Below are positions 32,961-53,204 of a DNA stretch of 64,000 nt, piece by piece (position 1 is the stretch's first letter; the number at the start of each line of letters is the position of its first letter). The stretch spans positions 2,886-66,885 of the forward strand of contig CALRGX010000005.1 of the NCBI GenBank assembly GCA_943358385.1, read 5' to 3'. The position numbers were made by a program, and so were the translations under genes. The DNA comes from Parcubacteria group bacterium. Its GTDB lineage: Bacteria > Patescibacteriota > Minisyncoccia > Phycocordibacterales > UBA2100. Below the pieces are notes generated by a model, which worked only from the letters and a program-made list of their open reading frames with translations, was not told the origin of the DNA and made no database searches.

Positions 32961-33009
32961 GGTCGTGCCTACTATACCACTCTCCCTGGGTAGGTGTTTA
33001 CGCTGAATA

Positions 33010-33038
33010 TTGACGTGGAACGTACTTGAAAGTATAGT
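33010..33038 (+). promoter_or_regulatory. Strong sigma70-like promoter driving ssrA
   Basis: TTGACG (33010-15), a 17-bp spacer, then TATAGT (33033-38). Confidence 0.6.
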
Positions 33039-33044
33039 CCAAAA

Positions 33045-33107
33045 CGGTGTTAGGTGCGGTGTAACTAAGTGGATCGGACCCGGGGGCGGTACCCGGCGCC
33101 TCCACCA
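33045..33107 (+). ncRNA. ssrA: tmRNA acceptor (3') piece of a circularly permuted ssrA
   Basis: A T-arm-like hairpin CCGGG-ggcggta-CCCGG is followed by CGCCTCC-ACCA. This is the 3' acceptor strand, discriminator and CCA, and it lies upstream of the 5' GGGGGCG strand. Confidence 0.55.
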
Positions 33108-33149
33108 AAAACACATCGCTCTGTTCTTTACAGAAGGTGTGCTTTTGCT

Positions 33150-33340
33150 GGGGGCGAAATAGGATCGACGACCACCCAAAAGCTCCGCTGCTTCAACGCA
33201 AGCCGAAGCACCAACTCAAGTGCCAACCATCAGGACGGCGCTGTTCACGCCTAAGGGCTGAACGGGGTTCGGGGAGTACCTGGCAACAGAAACTCCCCAC
33301 TCATACCATGGGCCCGCTCAAAGAGAGCGGGCCCAACTCA
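33150..33340 (+). ncRNA. ssrA: tmRNA coding (5') piece of permuted ssrA
   Basis: It begins GGGGGCGAAATAGGATCGACG, which resembles the tmRNA 5' end GGGGcugauucuGGAUUCGACG. Its GGGGGCG is complementary to the upstream CGCCTCC. It contains a short reading frame ending TAA (a candidate tag ...ANHQDGAVHA) and a terminal hairpin GGGCCCGCTC-aaagag-AGCGGGCCC. Confidence 0.55.
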
Positions 33341-33420
33341 TATCTGAGTGAATTTGACACTAGTATTTTACGGTGGTACTATATAAAAGGTACAGTAGGA
33401 AACCAAAGGAGAACAGACGA

Positions 33421-35322: not shown

Positions 35323-35357
35323 AACTCACTTGCCTGAGCAAGTGGTGCGACTCACAT
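35323..35357. repeat. Left copy of imperfect direct repeats flanking the AT-rich islet (AACTCACTTGCCT ... GCGACTCACAT), containing palindrome CACTTGC-ctga-GCAAGTG
   Basis: ACTCACTTGCCT and GCGACTCAC recur at 37653-37667 as GCGACTCACTTGCCT. ACTCACAT recurs at 37729-37736. Confidence 0.5.
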
Positions 35358-35371
35358 ACATAAATTGCAAC

Positions 35372-35402
35372 AAAAAAACACGATAATCTCGTGTATTTTT
35401 TG
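35372..35402. terminator. Bidirectional terminator (tRNA-Ser on + and the island operon on -)
   Basis: AAAAAAACACGA-taatc-TCGTGTATTTTTTT. Confidence 0.65.
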
Positions 35403-35417
35403 TTGCAAGAGTAACTC

Positions 35418-35837
35418 TCAATAAGACTTTAGCCACTCATTCATCATTTTAATTTCAACCTCTTGAGCTTTTATTATATTCTCTGCAAAAGTCCTAATTT
35501 CAGGATTTACAGTTTTGTCTTGTAGTAACAATTTGGCCATGTCTACAGCACCTTGATGATGAGGTATCATGCCAGCAATAAATTCTTTTTCTAGAGCTTT
35601 ACCTGTTTTACCTTTCATCATCCCGACCATGTCTGTCATGGTCATATCCATCATACTGTTACCAGTATTCATCATCATTGAACCATCTGGCATTTGATGC
35701 ATATTCTGCATTGTTTTCTGTGCACCAGTTAGATTGTTTATTCGCTCTTTATCTTTCTGTACGATATCTCCGAAGTGAAATACCCATGTAGAGATGAGTG
35801 CTATTGCTAATACGATTGTAGAAATTTTGTAATTCAT
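35418..35837 (-). CDS. DUF305-family protein with Met-rich segment (copper-associated four-helix-bundle family)
   Basis: Signal peptide, the Met-rich run MQNMHQMPDGSMMMNTGNSMMDMTMTDMVGMM, and the DUF305 motif GMIPHHQGAVDMA. Confidence 0.65.
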   Translation of the reverse strand: MNYKISTIVLAIALISTWVFHFGDIVQKDKERINNLTGAQKTMQNMHQMPDGSMMMNTGNSMMDMTMTDMVGMMKGKTGKALEKEFIAGMIPHHQGAVDMAKLLLQDKTVNPEIRTFAENIIKAQEVEIKMMNEWLKSY

Positions 35838-35872
35838 AAATCTGTTTATTAATTAATAATACTTTGGGGACA

Positions 35873-36517
35873 TTACATTGCCATATGCCCCATACTTAAA
35901 GTTGTGATCACCATATAGAGAGCCATAAGTGCCATAAATAGATTCTCGAAAAGAGTTACCTTTGTCATTGGTACAGAGAAAACTGTTCCTAAGCATGCAC
36001 AAGGTATCTCATCTTTGTTTTGAAGTGCTTTCCAGACCCCTATAGTACCTATAGACATAATAATAAAGGTAAACACGTCTCTGTATATTCCACCAATGAC
36101 AAAGAAGTACAGTACTCCAAGCCCTATTTCAATAAATGGATACAGAAGTGCGTATGTGCGAGACTTCTTTGCCAAGATATCATACGTCATGTAAGCGTCT
36201 GCAAAAGCACTCAAATTGGGTAGTTTAAATAATCCAAAAACAAGAAAGAAATAGGACATCATGTACATCATTCCTGTCATAAAGCTATAATCTTGTTTGA
36301 GATACATAGAGACAATAGTCAAAATTGTAATGACTCCGATCATAGCTATTAATGGTAATAGTTTTTGGAAAGTTGATTGATGTGGAAGATTCAAGACTTT
36401 TATTGATTGTTCGGTTTTGTGGTGTTCACAAAAGTAATGAGGACTACCATTTGTGTTCTCATAATAGGTGCCAGCCATACTACACTTCTCACATTTGTTG
36501 TATTTTATTGCATGCAT
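35873..36517 (-). CDS. MauE/DoxX-family redox-associated membrane protein with N-terminal zinc-ribbon-like domain
   Basis: The N-terminus CEKC...FCEHH is followed by a 4-TM domain with LYPFIEIGLGVLYFFV and IPCACLGTVFSVPMTKVTLFEN. It is a paralogue of the C-domain of 7788..8507. Confidence 0.6.
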   Translation of the reverse strand: MHAIKYNKCEKCSMAGTYYENTNGSPHYFCEHHKTEQSIKVLNLPHQSTFQKLLPLIAMIGVITILTIVSMYLKQDYSFMTGMMYMMSYFFLVFGLFKLPNLSAFADAYMTYDILAKKSRTYALLYPFIEIGLGVLYFFVIGGIYRDVFTFIIMSIGTIGVWKALQNKDEIPCACLGTVFSVPMTKVTLFENLFMALMALYMVITTLSMGHMAM

Positions 36518-36522
36518 ACAAT

Positions 36523-36888
36523 TTAATGTTGAACGCTTTCACTTCCATGATGATCTTCACCAAGTAGTGTGTTATCCATAACATAATGAGAAAACAACAT
36601 AAAAAGTATTGCTAAAATTACCACAACTGCAAGATTTCTCTTTTCTATTTTGAATCTGTCTTTCAAGAAAAATGTTACATAGGTGATAATCATTCCAAGG
36701 CCAAGAAGTATTCCAGCGTATGACGGATTATCAAGATAATGCTGTATACCACCTGACAAAAATCCAGTTGCAAACGAAAGTCCTGTGATTATAAGAAAAT
36801 AATTTAGGTTGATTTTTTGCCCATGTTCTTTTGCTTCTTTAATATTTCCTATAATAGTGAAGATTAGACCTATACCAATTAGAACCAC
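36523..36888 (-). CDS. Small integral membrane protein, His-rich C-terminus; start may lie upstream (non-ATG)
   Basis: It has 3-4 hydrophobic helices and a C-terminus EDHHGSESVQH. The in-frame hydrophobic sequence continues upstream to 36993 without an ATG. Confidence 0.45.
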   Translation of the reverse strand: MVLIGIGLIFTIIGNIKEAKEHGQKINLNYFLIITGLSFATGFLSGGIQHYLDNPSYAGILLGLGMIITYVTFFLKDRFKIEKRNLAVVVILAILFMLFSHYVMDNTLLGEDHHGSESVQH

Positions 36889-37008
36889 ATATCTAGTAAC
36901 TCCATTTTGGAGTGTTCCGATATGAACTACTGACCCTGCGATAAGGGCAACTCCTAAATATTTGCAATATAAGTAAAAAATGCATAATGTGATTTATTTA
37001 TATCCATA

Positions 37009-37281
37009 CTATTTCCTCTTTAGCTTATAGACTTTAATAATCTCCTCTTGCATTTCCTTGATTCGACTTTTATTTGTGTCTTTTGTAAGACAGTGGGCAA
37101 GGTGGCTCTGTAGCATCTCATCTTCAAGGGAAGAGATGGCACTTTTTATAGCACTTGTTTGAGTAATGATATCAATACAGTATTTATCTGCTTGAATCAT
37201 CTTTTCAACTCCCTCCAGTTGTCCCATTATGCGTTTAATGCGACTAACTATTTTTTTGTTATCTTTGTGTACTCCGTGCAT
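37009..37281 (-). CDS. csoR: CsoR/RcnR-family metal-sensing transcriptional repressor (copper-sensing CsoR-like)
   Basis: VSRIKRIMGQLEGVEKMIQADKYCIDIITQTSAIKSAISSLEDEMLQSHLAHC carries the DUF156 pattern with conserved Cys...His...Cys ligand positions. Confidence 0.75.
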   Translation of the reverse strand: MHGVHKDNKKIVSRIKRIMGQLEGVEKMIQADKYCIDIITQTSAIKSAISSLEDEMLQSHLAHCLTKDTNKSRIKEMQEEIIKVYKLKRK

Positions 37282-37283
37282 AT

Positions 37284-37367
37284 TTATTTACAGCAATTAG
37301 AACCACAATTTGAACAAGCACACTTCTCACATTTACATGTGATACAAGAGCATTTTGTATTTTTCAT
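37284..37367 (-). CDS. 27-aa Cys-rich peptide (MKNTKCSCITCKCEKCACSNCGSNCCK), candidate metallothionein/Cu-binding peptide; first gene of csoR operon
   Basis: I translated the minus strand by hand. It gives 9 Cys in 27 aa, in CxC and CC motifs. The stop TAA lies 2 nt before the csoR ATG. The ORF is below the size cutoff of the ORF track. Confidence 0.5.
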   Translation of the reverse strand: MKNTKCSCITCKCEKCACSNCGSNCCK

Positions 37368-37421
37368 AATAATAGAGATATTGTAGTGGGTTATGGTAAT
37401 GGACTAGAATATCTTGTATAT

Positions 37422-37450
37422 ATTATATACCCTATGGGGGTATATTGCAA
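37422..37450 (-). promoter_or_regulatory. Promoter of the Cys-peptide/csoR operon with CsoR-like operator in the spacer
   Basis: On the minus strand the promoter reads TTGCAA - 17 bp - TATAAT. The spacer contains the GC-rich pseudo-palindrome ATACCCTATGGGGGTAT (37427-37443), which resembles known CsoR operators (TACCC...GGGGGTA type). Confidence 0.55.
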
Positions 37451-37652
37451 CTAGTCTATAAGCGTTAATTCTTTATCTTTATACACGATCTTGCTCCGCA
37501 GATTTGCTAATAGCTCTCGCTTCTCTGTGACCGCACCCTCTTTCAGAATGTATTTTGCATAATTTCGTATATCAGTATCAGGTGCTTATTTCTCTAGGTG
37601 TCTCATTTGTCTCATTTTCATCTAAAACCCTTTGTTTTATTACTGGGAGATA

Positions 37653-37667
37653 GCGACTCACTTGCCT
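37653..37667. repeat. Right copy of direct repeat (GCGACTCACTTGCCT) bounding the AT-rich islet
   Basis: It matches the left-flank segments at 35323-35335 and 35347-35355. Confidence 0.45.
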
Positions 37668-37827
37668 CAATGAGACACTCTAAAAAGTGCTATAATACAC
37701 TTACAAGGCCTCAAGTCGTGGGTACTTAACTCACATGGCCCGCAAAAATAAAGAGACAGAAGCGAAAGCTTCTGGCGATTATATTTTTGTAGGAAGGGTG
37801 AAAGATTCGAAGGCCGGAGGCGGGGGT

Positions 37828-37960
37828 CCCCAAAAGCTTTTGGGGCGCCGAGGCAGGGTCGTGGAATTTTCAAGTGCGACGGCACTTGAAAATATCCCTG
37901 ACCGAATCCCGGTCAAAAGTCTGCATCTACTGATACAGCTTTCGACCCTGCCTCGCGCCG
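37828..37960 (+). other. Highly structured ~130-nt element (candidate ncRNA or MITE-like repeat)
   Basis: A perfect 18-bp palindrome CCCCAAAAGCTTTTGGGG lies at 37828-37845. A 13-bp long-range stem pairs CGAGGCAGGGTCG (37849-61) with CGACCCTGCCTCG (37943-55). Inside it are the hairpins TTTTCAAGTGC-gacg-GCACTTGAAAA and GACCG-aatcc-CGGTC. Confidence 0.4.
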
Positions 37961-38381
37961 ACGCGCTCCGGCCTTGCGAAGCTGCGCACGGCTCGCTTCT
38001 CACCCCTCCGCTTTGTTCAAGAGAAAGCTTCAAGATAAAGAGAGAAGTTCGCCGCCTTCGCATGTATACTTTCAGTATGTGGATTCACCAGCGCTCGCTG
38101 CTCATCGGTGCTGCCTTCGCACTTCCATTTTTCGCTGCAAATGTGCTGGTAGCTTTGCAGGCAAAACTATTCCTTTGGCTCCTGCGCCCCCTGGGGCATA
38201 CCACGCTGGATGAAGAAATCGCCCAGCCCCCAGCCGATAAGGGCAATAAAAGCACACAGAACACCCCACGAAAGTGACATGGGGGAAGTGTAGCATCGCT
38301 GCCACAGACAGCTCGGCAGTATGTACATTGCGTTCACGTGTGTGCTAATGTAATTCGGGTTTAGCTACAGGAGAGTGCTAC

Positions 38382-52162: not shown

Positions 52163-52603
52163 CTATACGCCACGCACGCGCGACCCGCTATCGATCGCGA
52201 CCATGCGATGATGGAGCGAAACGACGTTGTCGTAAAATGCTTGGAACGTTTCGGGAAGTGCACGCAGCTGTGGATGCTCAGTACTCCACTGGTCGCTGTA
52301 CAGATCCGCGATGGCGCGCTTTGCCCTTGCCGTGCCCCATCCGTCCACCTCCTCTCCTTCGAGCTGACTTCGCTGAACGAGCGCCCAGCTCGCCAGCATG
52401 AGCATTCTGCTGGTCATCTGCATAGATGCACCAACATACGCGCCCTGAAGTGCTCGAGAGAGCTTCTTGCACTCTCGTCGTCCTTGGCCGTCAAGATACG
52501 TGGCCATTGATTCGGTAAGACTCATTGCCTCGGTGAAAAGTCCATCGAACTTGCGTTTTTTGTACTCTGCACCAAAAGAAACAACGGTGACAGGTGATGT
52601 CAT
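52163..52603 (-). CDS. Hypothetical protein
   Basis: The start MTSPVTVVSF is preceded by GAGGA-N5. A longer start would overlap the tRNA-Gly promoter. Confidence 0.45.
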   Translation of the reverse strand: MTSPVTVVSFGAEYKKRKFDGLFTEAMSLTESMATYLDGQGRRECKKLSRALQGAYVGASMQMTSRMLMLASWALVQRSQLEGEEVDGWGTARAKRAIADLYSDQWSTEHPQLRALPETFQAFYDNVVSLHHRMVAIDSGSRVRGV

Positions 52604-52688
52604 GTGGTCCTCGCTTTCTCTGTGCGCATAGTGCAACGCGTACATGCGCGAGTCAATGCACACAGCGCGAGCACAGGAGTCCGAGTCT

Positions 52689-52707: not shown

Positions 52708-52778
52708 GCGGAATTAGTTCAGTGGTAGAACGAATGCTTCCCAAGCATTAGACGCGGGTTCGATTCCCGCATTCCGCA
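52708..52778 (+). tRNA. tRNA-Gly (anticodon CCC)
   Basis: The acceptor is GCGGAAT/ATTCCGC with discriminator A. The anticodon stem AATGC/GCATT carries the loop TTCCCAA. The T-arm is GCGGG-TTCGATT-CCCGC. Confidence 0.85.
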
Positions 52779-53204
52779 CAAAAAAGATGAGCTGGAAGCG
52801 TGAGCTTCCGGCGATTACTTTTTGTAGCGAAATGCGGGAATCGAAAGGCGGAGCCTGAATGAATGCCGAACTGAGTGAGGCAGAGAACAGGCGAGCCCGG
52901 GGAGGAAGCACTTAGATTTTTCTGCGTGAGCTAGAAAAAACTTAGTGACTTGACCCCGATTCCCGCATTCCGCACAAAACTCGCTGAGCGAGTGTGTGTG
53001 GAATGAGAAACATGCCTGCGCATGTTTCGTCGGGAATCGAAGCCCGGAGCGTTGTGTTTGTTTGTGTAGCAAGGCAAACACCCTGCCCGACCGGCAGGCG
53101 GGCGCGAGGGCCGGCTCGAAGAAAATTGCGTCAGCAATTTTACTGAGAGGATCCCGCATTCCGCGTTATCGTAAATATCCCTGATTGATTCCCGCATTCC
53201 GCAC
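52758..53204. repeat. Patchwork of direct and inverted copies of the tRNA-Gly 3' end
   Basis: Direct copies of GATTCCCGCATTCCGCAC(AAAA) lie at 52763-80 (in the tRNA), 52958-79 (22 bp), 53152-64 (13 bp) and 53187-204 (18 bp). Inverted partial copies ATGCGGGAATCGAA lie at 52832-45 and CGGGAATCGAA at 53031-41. The arrangement looks like two ~195-bp units, each a direct core, a hairpin and an inverted core. Confidence 0.6.

What the first reader, a model, noticed from the sequence alone, without database searches (positions are those of the whole stretch)
52758..53204. Patchwork of direct and inverted tRNA-Gly 3'-end copies downstream of tRNA-Gly(CCC)
The last ~18-22 nt of tRNA-Gly, GATTCCCGCATTCCGCAC(AAAA), recur as direct copies at 52958, 53152 and 53187. 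Inverted partial copies, the complement of the T-arm/acceptor strand, lie at 52832 and 53031. The copies fall into two ~195-bp units: a direct core, a local hairpin (GCTGGAAGC...GCTTCCGGC, then CTCGCT-g-AGCGAG), and an inverted core ~68 nt later. A further pair of direct copies lies 35 bp apart, just before the glutaredoxin-like gene. The intervening sequence differs between units and holds more palindromes, AAACATGC-ctgc-GCATGTTT and AAAATTGC-gtca-GCAATTTT. ORF-track ORFs across this region look spurious. Plausible readings are nested attL/attR scars of successive integrations and excisions at tRNA-Gly, or a structured tRNA-derived repeat family. Direct and inverted cores could pair in RNA.
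Basis: seen in the sequence. Interest (0 to 1): 0.55.

Follow-up and report, generated by a model that had tools for sequence, protein, structure and literature searches.

The report
Tiny mobile cassettes stacked behind tRNA-Gly
The repeats behind this tRNA-Gly gene are a stack of gene-less, roughly 200-bp DNA cassettes that insert into the tRNA's T-loop, bring their own replacement tRNA end, and share a conserved folded structure; this small mobile element of candidate-phyla-radiation bacteria matched nothing in the databases and papers searched here.

Summary
The tRNA-Gly(CCC) 3' end recurs exactly at 52957 and 53187, degenerately at 53152, and inverted at 52827 and 53003/53031.

Comparison with relatives shows discrete cassettes of about 150-240 bp.
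- A near-identical strain lacks cassette A precisely.
- A sister species carries A behind cassette B. The cassettes are 96-100% identical there, while the flanks are about 80% identical.
- Other Paceibacterota, a Saccharibacteria MAG and one unclassified metagenome contig carry one or two cassettes after their own tRNA-Gly(CCC).
- Several relatives have empty sites.

Junctions place the crossover inside (C)GATTCC of the T-loop. They also show that the cassette carries its own tRNA 3' end.

All cassettes share a three-way-junction fold on the tRNA-sense strand. It is supported by compensatory changes, and its closing helix contains the crossover site. A covariance model found a further copy at 37745-37975.

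No recombinase gene was found in the ORFs scanned across the window, and no parent element turned up in viral, phage or plasmid collections.

Best reading: miniature non-autonomous site-specific integrative cassettes, mobilised in trans. The enzyme, and whether the fold acts as RNA or as single-stranded DNA, are unknown.

The parts
52708..52779 (+). tRNA-Gly(CCC). Its T-loop (TT|CGATTCC) is the insertion point. From 52761 on, the sequence is shared with the downstream copies.
   Evidence: ARAGORN; Rfam; repeats.
52761..52979 (+). Cassette A: one 196-bp period plus its right-hand tRNA-end copy at 52957-52979. It is absent from strain L006, and in species L001 it sits behind cassette B.
   Evidence: Alignment; 96.5-100% identical to the L001 copy against about 80% for the flanks.
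52780..52826 (+). Left hairpin S1 of cassette A: A-run, GCTGGAAGC-GTGA-GCTTCCGGC, T-run. It was flagged as terminator-like. The GCGNRAGC tip recurs in other cassettes with covarying stems.
   Evidence: DNA fold of 52757-52848, z = -8.7.
52827..52845 (+). Inverted copy of the tRNA 3' end in cassette A. Its conserved part is Box 1 (GGGAATCGAA), the 5' strand of helix P1.
52846..52956 (+). Helices P2 and P3 of cassette A. P2 is 52847-52897 with the GGA/GA internal loop. P3 is 52899-52957 and ends in TTGACCCC.
   Evidence: Fold (z = -6.75); covariance model hit 52835-52965, 53.8 bits.
52957..53166 (+). Cassette B. Hairpin CTCGCT-G-AGCGAG at 52980-52992; split inverted core at 53003-53012 and 53031-53041, separated by a CTGC-loop hairpin. 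P2: GCCC-GGA-GCG at 53042-53051 pairs with CGC-GA-GGGC at 53103-53111. P3: 53114-53147. Degenerate right copy GATCCCGCATTCCGC at 53152-53166.
   Evidence: model hit 53031-53156, 30.4 bits; 97.6% identical to the L001 copy.
53167..53186 (+). Remnant of a third cassette's right end. GTAAATATCCCTGATT matches TTGAAATATCCCTGACC of L012 cassette 1.
   Evidence: Read directly.
53187..53204 (+). Outermost copy of the tRNA 3' end. It abuts the native downstream sequence CTATCCACTTGC, which relatives share upstream of the glutaredoxin gene.
37745..37910 (+). Diverged full cassette outside the tRNA-Gly locus. Box 1 and the right core read GATTCG/CGAATC instead of GAATCG/CGATTC, a compensatory change in P1.
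   Evidence: Model R1 hit 37801-37911, 45.9 bits, E 1e-10; not used to build the model. Alignment to L012 cassette 1.
37911..37975 (-). Partial cassette (P2 and P3) in convergent orientation. It shares TGACCGAATCCCGGTCA with the copy at 37745-37910.
   Evidence: Model R1, 27.6-27.7 bits.

Best explanation
The region is a tandem stack of miniature, gene-less, site-specific integrative cassettes at the T-loop of tRNA-Gly(CCC).

Each cassette of about 150-240 bp has the same parts, in this order:
1. [quoted passage not shown]
2. A hairpin, S1.
3. An inverted copy of the T-loop and T-stem, Box 1. It starts 74-77 nt after the start of the left tRNA-end copy in 10 of 11 cassettes.
4. Two helices, P2 and P3.
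5. The motif YSTGAC followed by CGATTCC.

Shown:
- Cassettes are gained and lost as whole units at the tRNA-end copies.
- Strand exchange falls inside (C)GATTCC.
- A new cassette can insert either at the tRNA itself or at a displaced copy.
- On the tRNA-sense strand, Box 1 pairs with the cassette's right-hand CGATTCCC. This closes a three-way junction whose closing helix contains the crossover site.

Inferred:
- A recombinase encoded elsewhere (tyrosine or large serine type) moves the cassettes in trans through a small circular intermediate.
- The conserved fold is needed for the cassette's own propagation, either as single-stranded DNA or as RNA.
- The hairpin behind the replaced tRNA end may also terminate or process the tRNA transcript.
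For: Polymorphism:
- Eight near-identical contigs share the window's layout, while strain L006 lacks exactly cassette A.
- Species L001 has tRNA|B|A'.
- Between the window and L001, A and B are 96.5-100% identical. The adjacent DUF1465 gene is 80.3% identical and the promoter spacer 81.5%.

Junctions in L001:
- Left junction: ...GAGAGGATCC|CGCATTCCGCACAAAAAAG.
- Right junction: ...GACCCCGATTCC|TTCAAAACAAT.
- The repeat there is therefore only GAT(T)CC, and the tRNA end travels with the cassette.

Distribution:
- One or two cassettes follow tRNA-Gly(CCC) in L012 (Paceibacterota), L013 (Saccharibacteria), L015, L017 and L020.
- The flanking repeat matches each host's own tRNA: ATCCCGC in L017 and CCCCCGTCCCGC in L020.
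- In L020 the tRNA lies on the other strand and the cassette follows it.
- Sites are empty in L019, L154-159, L022, L023 and L024-27.

Architecture: Box 1 starts at position 74-77 from the left CGATT in 10 of 11 cassettes, although the spacer sequences are unrelated.

Fold:
- The same three-way junction is predicted in A, L012u1, L015, L017 and L020. In every cassette folded the tRNA-sense strand gave the lower minimum free energy.
- On the 7-sequence alignment, 90.3% of cells are paired against 77.6% in shuffles (0/500). Nine pairs change on both sides (7/500). The covariation score is 0.403 against 0.166, and at most 0.09 when partners are slid.
- The result is similar on 14 model-aligned sequences.
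- The model finds an independent copy at 45.9 bits. The best of 858 kb of decoy DNA scores 16.7 bits.

No ORF is conserved within the cassettes.

Precedents for tandem accretion at tRNA/tmRNA 3' ends and for mid-T-loop insertion: PMC5704250 and PMC3146451.
Against: - No recombinase was found. None of the 42 window ORFs scanned against Pfam, nor the L013 and L015 ORFs scanned, matched an integrase, recombinase or transposase family.
- No excised circle or circular junction was observed.
- The L006 deletion alone could arise by slippage or homologous recombination between the 23-nt repeats.
- The tRNA-Gly locus lies near lepA in the window, its syntenic relatives, L013 and L015. Some sharing could therefore be vertical.
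- High identity between the window and L001 could reflect homologous exchange of the whole spacer between co-occurring relatives, although the different cassette order argues against that.
- The covariation test rests on 7-14 related sequences. The structure was derived from those sequences, and the model alignment was hand-trimmed.
- A double-stranded recombination mechanism would not by itself explain selection for P2 and P3 pairing.
Confidence: 0.55

Rival explanations
1. The units are host-beneficial small RNA genes linked to tRNA-Gly. They are co-transcribed with the tRNA or processed like it. The three-way junction is closed by a helix that mimics the tRNA-Gly T-stem and acceptor stem. 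Copy-number changes come from homologous recombination or slippage between the tRNA-like ends.
For: - Compensatory changes in P1, P2 and P3, a conserved GGA/GA internal loop and a conserved G.U pair occur on the tRNA-sense strand only.
- The strand asymmetry of fold z-scores is larger with RNA than with DNA parameters. For L017, RNA gives -4.66 against -2.36 and DNA gives -2.73 against -2.38.
- The units are always co-oriented with the tRNA.
Against: - Distribution is patchy, with empty sites in close relatives.
- Arrays contain decayed copies. L012u2 scores 27 bits, L013u1 16 bits, and 53167-53186 is only a remnant.
- The same cassette sits at different array positions with far lower divergence than the flanks.
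- The L001 junctions share only GAT(T)CC.
- The 5' strand of the acceptor-like part of P1 is degenerate in L017 and L020 while the 3' copy stays identical to the tRNA. That does not look like selection for a mimic helix.
- No promoter-like site was found and no Rfam family matches.
Confidence: 0.2
2. The units are ordinary scars: attL/attR remnants (CIME-like) left after internal deletion of successive large prophages or genomic islands that integrated at tRNA-Gly.
For: - Direct repeats of a tRNA 3' end in tandem downstream of the gene are the classic signature of serial integration (PMC5704250 and PMC3146451).
- Large serine recombinase elements exist in this group. L020 has one next to tRNA-Arg, 56% identical to the L161 recombinase.
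Against: - Random deletions would not give the same 150-240-bp size, the same order of boxes, a fixed 74-77-nt spacing and a fold with compensatory changes in two phyla.
- No gene fragments are present.
- No parent was found in IMG/VR, phage or plasmid collections.
- The same small cassette A lies at two different att copies in two species.
Confidence: 0.15
3. The pattern is a by-product of palindrome-driven replication errors (template switching and slippage) around the tRNA terminator. It has no function and no dedicated mobility.
For: Long imperfect palindromes include the tRNA 3' end (DNA fold z = -8.7). Short direct repeats flanking palindromes are deletion-prone.
Against: - The boxes and the fold are conserved between phyla, with compensatory substitutions.
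- The repeats match each host's own tRNA in lineages whose tRNA sequences differ.
- An independent copy exists at 37.8 kb.
Confidence: 0.04

Closest known systems
Tandem site-specific accretion of integrative elements at tRNA/tmRNA 3' ends. Examples: CIME plus ICE/IME arrays in streptococci, and Dehalococcoides ssrA genomic islands.
   Same: - Serial insertion at the 3' part of a small-RNA gene.
- Each unit is bounded by a direct repeat of the gene's 3' end.
[quoted passage not shown]
- Decayed units lacking an integrase persist in the array (PMC5704250).
   Different: - Those units are kilobases long, carry genes, and are visibly derived from integrase-bearing elements.
- Here the units are 150-240 bp and carry no genes. 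No parent was found.
- They have a conserved internal fold that includes an inverted copy of the target.
Integron attC sites and gene-cassette arrays (including integrase-less CALIN clusters), and the folded single-stranded attP of CTX phage.
   Same: - Arrays of short units next to one fixed site.
- The recombination point lies in the 3' arm of a helix formed by imperfect inverted repeats.
- Structure rather than sequence is conserved, and the fold is strand-specific.
- In CTX, a folded single strand imitates the chromosomal target duplex (PMC3442271 and PMC4792948, listed; details of those systems are from my own knowledge).
   Different: - The end motifs are GGGAATCG/CGATTCCC, not RYYYAAC/GTTRRRY or dif-like.
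- The fixed site is a tRNA T-arm.
- The units carry no ORFs.
- No IntI or Xer link was shown, and single-strandedness is not demonstrated here.
MITEs and intergenic mosaic repeats such as REPIN, BIME and the Neisseria NIME/dRS3 arrays (from my own knowledge).
   Same: - Small, non-coding and hairpin-forming units.
- Terminal inverted repeats (the inverted and direct cores).
- Arranged in mosaics.
   Different: - They are not dispersed in high copy. Only two loci were seen in 64 kb, each next to or shortly downstream of a tRNA gene.
- There is no target-site duplication (L001 junction).
- The ends are copies of a tRNA gene segment.

Membership tests
tRNA-gene-targeting integrative elements (islands and prophages, T-loop sublocation) | Insertion in the 3' part of a tRNA gene, with the gene restored and a direct repeat of its 3' end at the far junction. 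| tested here: met
   The 23-nt, 19-nt, 22-nt and 24-nt repeats start at CGATT of the T-loop in the window, L015, L017 and L020.
tRNA-gene-targeting integrative elements (islands and prophages, T-loop sublocation) | Occupied and empty sites exist among relatives. | tested here: met
   L006 lacks cassette A. L019, L154-159, L022, L023 and L024-27 are empty.
tRNA-gene-targeting integrative elements (islands and prophages, T-loop sublocation) | The element encodes its own integrase next to an att site. | tested here: not met
   The cassettes contain no conserved ORF. No recombinase Pfam hit was found in the window ORFs scanned or in the L013 and L015 ORFs scanned.
CIME (cis-mobilizable element) | Flanked by attL and attR and lacking integration and transfer genes. 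| tested here: met
CIME (cis-mobilizable element) | Derived by deletion from a recognisable ICE, IME or prophage. | tested here: not met
   No related sequence was found in IMG/VR, INPHARED phages or PLSDB plasmids. These collections hold few CPR elements, so the test is weak.
Integron cassettes / attC | Imperfect inverted repeats close a structured site, with structure conserved more than sequence, and the crossover lies in the 3' arm. | tested here: met
   P1 = Box 1 paired with CGATTCCC. P2 and P3 covary. The crossover lies in (C)GATTCC.
Integron cassettes / attC | R''/R' consensus RYYYAAC ... GTTRRRY, and an IntI integrase with attI. | tested here: not met
   The ends read GGGAATCG ... CGATTCCC. 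No tyrosine recombinase was found in the window ORFs scanned.
MITE | Terminal inverted repeats plus a target-site duplication, dispersed in many copies. | tested here: not met
   Inverted ends are present. However, the L001 junctions share only GAT(T)CC, and the tRNA end belongs to the cassette. Only two loci were found in 64 kb.
Any described RNA family (Rfam 15) | A covariance-model match. | tested here: not met
   Only the tRNA itself matched. All other hits had E > 0.01 and scored far below their gathering thresholds.
Large serine recombinase att sites | Recombination at a 2-bp crossover by a linked or trans-acting serine recombinase. | not testable with these tools
   Such recombinases occur in relatives (L020, L161). 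No link to the cassettes could be tested.

The most novel reading that the evidence does not exclude
The cassettes could be a new kind of mobile element whose active form is a folded single strand, either DNA (as for integron attC or CTX phage) or RNA. In the excised circle the single direct core pairs with the inverted core. That pairing rebuilds a duplex copy of the tRNA gene's T-arm and acceptor segment around the crossover site, flanked by the S1 hairpin on one side and the P2/P3 fork on the other. A host or helper recombinase would then insert this mimic into the real tRNA gene. This would be an integron-like cassette system whose docking site is a tRNA T-loop.
Probability: 0.22. Interest if true: 0.85.

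Novelty: new variant of a known kind. Interest (0 to 1): 0.64.

Why it matters
If this reading is right, CPR bacteria have tiny genomes and few recognised mobile elements yet host a family of roughly 200-bp cassettes that home to one tRNA gene without damaging it.

- **A new minimal case.** It would be the smallest form of a site-specific integrative element I know of: essentially an attachment site plus a fold.
- **A new structured motif.** The fold already has compensatory-change support and can be tested directly.
- **A lead to an enzyme.** It points to an unidentified recombinase with a compact, well-defined target, CGATTCC in a T-loop.
- **A practical issue.** The cassettes break metagenome assemblies and generate spurious ORFs in MAG annotation.

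Tried and rejected
- **Alphaproteobacterial origin.** The alpha-type permuted tmRNA and the DUF1465 protein suggested it. I rejected it because the relatives are Paceibacterota/Kaiserbacteria MAGs.
- **Long target-site duplication** (casposon, CRISPR-repeat or TPRT style). Rejected by the L001 junctions.
- **Primer-binding-site-like complement of mature tRNA.** Rejected because the inverted copy continues into the gene's A-run instead of complementing CCA.
- **Minus-strand tRNA pseudogene.** ARAGORN found none, and the anticodon-arm-like hairpin has the wrong loop size.
- **Coding potential, including TGA at the right end as a stop codon.** No reading frame or peptide is conserved.
- **IS200/IS605-type ends.** The left and right hairpins are unrelated to each other.
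- **Known ribozymes, riboswitches or sRNAs.** No Rfam hit. The hammerhead and k-turn resemblances did not hold on inspection.
- **Parent phage or plasmid.** Five of the 8 allowed IMG/VR pattern scans, plus phage and plasmid BLAST, gave nothing or only chance hits in coding regions. The pattern was too loose, and I used its 120 loci only as decoys.
- **Link between the copper island's serine recombinase and the cassettes.** Homology to L161/L162 stops at window position 37450, and the window has no recombinase there.
- **Pseudo-tRNA at 37700-37745.** Similarity to tRNA-Gly and to tRNA-Ser is equally weak, so this is left open.

Full report
**1.

ARAGORN and Rfam place tRNA-Gly(CCC) at 52708-52779.
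- The last 18 nt recur exactly at 52958 and 53187. An inverted copy with 3 mismatches lies at 52825-52842. That is 4 matches against 0.08 expected by chance.
- The first two copies share 23 nt, CGATTCCCGCATTCCGCACAAAA. The periods are 196 and 191 nt. A degenerate copy, GATCCCGCATTCCGC, sits at 53152.
- The inverted copies and the named hairpins are all present.
- In the second unit the inverted copy is split by an inserted hairpin with a CTGC loop.
- Nothing in Rfam other than the tRNA matches the region.
- ORFs across the region are not conserved between units.

**2. The organism**

Neighbouring genes are DUF1465, a DivIC-like gene, lepA, murJ, a small glutaredoxin, tRNA-Arg, tRNA-Phe and an M16 peptidase. 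Named homologues of the glutaredoxin come from Paceibacterota/Kaiserbacteria MAGs. The one syntenic species representative found is a Candidatus Paceibacterota MAG. The window is therefore from a CPR (Patescibacteria) bacterium.

**3. The units behave as discrete cassettes**

- Eight contigs from other samples carry the same layout as the window. Contig L006 is otherwise near-identical but lacks exactly one period, cassette A, between the two 23-nt repeats.
- Contig L001 is a sister species; its DUF1465 protein is 83% identical. It has tRNA|B|A'. Cassette A lies behind B, at B's degenerate right-hand copy.
- Between the window and L001, the DUF1465 gene is 80.3% identical and the promoter spacer 81.5%. 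Cassette B is 97.6% identical and cassette A 96.5-100%.
- Non-coding cassettes that are five to ten times less diverged than the neighbouring gene, and that sit at different positions in the array, indicate recent acquisition from a shared pool rather than inheritance in place.

**4. The junctions locate the crossover**

In L001 the left junction of A' reads ...GAGAGGATCC|CGCATTCCGCACAAAAAAG. The right junction reads ...GACCCCGATTCC|TTCAAAACAAT.
- The target there had no CGCATTCCGCAC to the right of GATCC. After insertion that segment is present at the left junction only.
- The tRNA 3' end is therefore part of the cassette and not a target duplication.
- The exchange falls within (C)GATTCC, the 3' part of the T-loop plus the first two T-stem bases.
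- In L012 the repeats between cassettes are likewise only CGATTCC.
- This is the logic of conservative site-specific integration into tRNA genes, where the element supplies a new 3' end and pushes the old one downstream.
- In the window, the outermost copy at 53187-53204 abuts CTATCCACTTGC. Relatives share that sequence upstream of the glutaredoxin gene. It is probably the original tRNA end.
- The segment 53167-53186 matches the right end of an L012 cassette and is the remnant of a third cassette.

**5. Distribution**

A pattern requiring the tRNA end followed by the inverted T-loop at the observed distance found these loci:
- a Paceibacterota MAG (L012, two cassettes);
- a Saccharibacteria MAG (L013, two cassettes);
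- a metagenome contig (L015/L016, one cassette with perfect 19-nt repeats);
- one chance hit in a coding gene (L014).

Following glutaredoxin homologues gave unbiased loci:
- L017 and L020 each carry one cassette. The flanking repeat matches their own, different tRNA sequence: ...CATCCCGCACAAA in L017 and CGATTCCCCCGTCCCGCACAAAAA in L020.
- In L020 the tRNA is on the opposite strand and the cassette follows the tRNA, not the neighbouring genes.
- L019, L154-159, L022, L023 and L024-27 are empty.
- Occupied tRNAs all read CGATTCC in the T-loop. Three of the four empty lineages read CGATTCT. This is suggestive but not significant in the unbiased subset.
- lepA lies near the tRNA in L013 and L015 too. 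The locus is therefore orthologous, and context alone does not prove horizontal spread.

**6. A shared architecture**

All cassettes show the same order of parts:
1. The left tRNA-end copy.
2. A spacer, S1, that is unrelated in sequence between cassette types but nearly constant in length. Box 1 starts at position 74-77 from the left CGATT in 10 of 11 cassettes.
3. Box 1, GGGAATCGAA, the inverted T-loop and T-stem.
4. Box 2, RGSCGGAR.
5. A variable hairpin.
6. (CGCC)GAGCC, then GGGTCGWGG.
7. A variable hairpin.
8. YSTGAC, immediately followed by CGATTCC.

Cassettes are mosaics. The left half of L015 resembles window cassette B, and its right half resembles L012 cassette 1.

**7. A conserved fold**

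Independent MFE predictions give the same three-way junction on the tRNA-sense strand in A, L012u1, L015, L017 and L020.
- P1 is Box 1 paired with the right-hand CGATTCCC, extended into the acceptor part where that part is intact.
- P2 is Box 2 paired with ...GAGCC, with a conserved GGA/GA internal loop.
- P3 is GGUCG paired with UGACC, with a conserved G.U pair, continuing into a variable hairpin.
- In every cassette folded, the tRNA-sense strand gave the lower minimum free energy.

The stems covary:
- P2 outer: GGC/GCC, GCC/GGC, AGC/GCU or GCCC/GGGC.
- P2 inner: GCCUG/CAGGC, GGCG/CGCC, AGCCCG/CGGGCU or GCG/CGC.
- The distal stem of P3 keeps the loop UGCGACGGC, while 4 of its 7 pairs are exchanged between L012u1 and L015.

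Formal counts:
- On seven trimmed cores, 90.3% of cells are paired against 77.6% in shuffles (0/500). Nine pairs change on both sides (7/500). The covariation score is 0.403 against 0.166, and at most 0.09 when partners are slid.
- A covariance model built from these recovers all cassettes and finds a copy at 37801-37911 (45.9 bits) that was not used to build it.
- In 858 kb of decoy DNA preselected to contain the P3/Box 4 pattern, the best score is 16.7 bits.
- The 14-sequence model alignment gives 88.8% paired against 75.8%, and 10 pairs with double changes.

Caveats: there are few sequences and they are related. The structure was read from these same sequences, and the variable hairpin tips were trimmed by hand for the first alignment.

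**8. The second locus**

Region 37745-37975 holds one full and one convergent partial cassette.
- Box 1 and the right core both read GATTCG/CGAATC instead of GAATCG/CGATTC. This is a compensatory change in P1.
- The locus lies just beyond a 2.3-kb island of about 34% GC (csoR, MauE, DUF305). The island is flanked by exact 12-nt repeats at 35324 and 37656, and it starts 23 nt after tRNA-Ser(GGA), whose T-loop is TTCGAATC.
- Whether this cassette once followed a tRNA cannot be settled. The sequence upstream of it resembles tRNA-Gly and tRNA-Ser equally weakly.

**9. What moves the cassettes**

This is not known.
- None of the 42 window ORFs scanned against Pfam matched a recombinase family. Neither did the L013 and L015 ORFs scanned.
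- Large serine recombinases exist in the group. L020 has one convergent with tRNA-Arg. It is 56% identical to the one linked to the copper cassette in L161/L162.
- A serine recombinase is also the integrase of the mid-T-loop ssrA islands of Dehalococcoides.
- No connection between these enzymes and the cassettes could be tested.
- No relative of the cassettes exists in IMG/VR, INPHARED or PLSDB.

**10. Interpretation**

Shown:
- Discrete cassettes with presence/absence and positional polymorphism.
- A crossover within (C)GATTCC.
- A tRNA end carried by the cassette.
- Cross-phylum conservation of layout, spacing and a fold with compensatory changes.

Inferred:
- A trans-acting site-specific recombinase and a small circular intermediate.
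- That the fold serves the cassette's own propagation.

In a circle there is only one direct core. The inverted core would pair with it, giving a duplex copy of the target around the crossover. S1 would lie on one side and P2/P3 on the other. This resembles integron attC sites and the folded attP of CTX phage, but single-strandedness is not demonstrated. An RNA role is equally compatible with the covariation, the G.U pair and the larger strand asymmetry under RNA parameters.

The patchy distribution, the decayed copies and the arrays argue for a selfish element rather than a host RNA gene, though the two are not exclusive. Simple scars of large elements are unlikely, given the conserved size and fold and the movement of the small unit itself.

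**11. Verdict**

- The finding is real and more than ordinary att scars.
- It is best filed as a new variant of tRNA-targeting site-specific integrative elements: miniature, non-coding and structured.
- There is a meaningful chance (about 0.2) that it represents a new single-strand-based cassette system.

Noticed in passing
window 37745-37975: A second cassette locus found by the covariance model. It holds a full cassette (+) and a convergent partial one (-) that share TGACCGAATCCCGGTCA. Its T-loop variant is CGAATC. A 180-aa ORF (37735-38277) runs through both and is probably spurious.
   Followed up: partly
window 35336-37655: A foreign island of about 34% GC in a 52% GC genome. It carries csoR-type repressor, MauE and DUF305 genes and is flanked by exact 12-nt direct repeats ACTCACTTGCCT (35324 and 37656), 23 nt after tRNA-Ser(GGA). 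The same gene set, 73-83% identical in DNA, sits next to a 439-aa large serine recombinase in two different contexts in L161 and L162.
   Followed up: partly
window 33006-33345: A permuted (two-piece) tmRNA that matches the alphaproteobacterial tmRNA model (122.9 bits) in what is otherwise a CPR/Paceibacterota genome.
   Followed up: no
window 52163-52612 (-): A DUF1465 (RcdA-like adaptor) protein diverges from tRNA-Gly. Only two close relatives turned up in a word-index-limited search of a 5.8-billion-protein collection. The next hit is a 35%-identical Mesorhizobium protein.
   Followed up: no
L020 3470-5007: A large serine recombinase gene lies convergent with tRNA-Arg(CCT). The 145-nt spacer holds a direct T-arm-like piece (GCGGTTCGACTCC) and an inverted one (GGAAATCGAAC). 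This may be a similar arrangement at another tRNA.
   Followed up: no
L019, L154-159, L022, L024-27 versus window, L001, L012, L013, L015, L017, L020: All occupied tRNA-Gly genes read CGATTCC at the T-loop/T-stem junction. Three of the four empty lineages read CGATTCT. L023 reads CGATTCC and is empty.
   Followed up: partly
L011, L018, L160 (contig ends): Several metagenome contigs begin inside a cassette or at a tRNA-end copy, so these repeats break short-read assemblies.
   Followed up: no
L023 3877-4224: A gene with bAvd / 23S_rRNA_IVP domains, an accessory protein of diversity-generating retroelements, lies near the empty tRNA-Gly locus of a Kaiserbacteria MAG.
   Followed up: no
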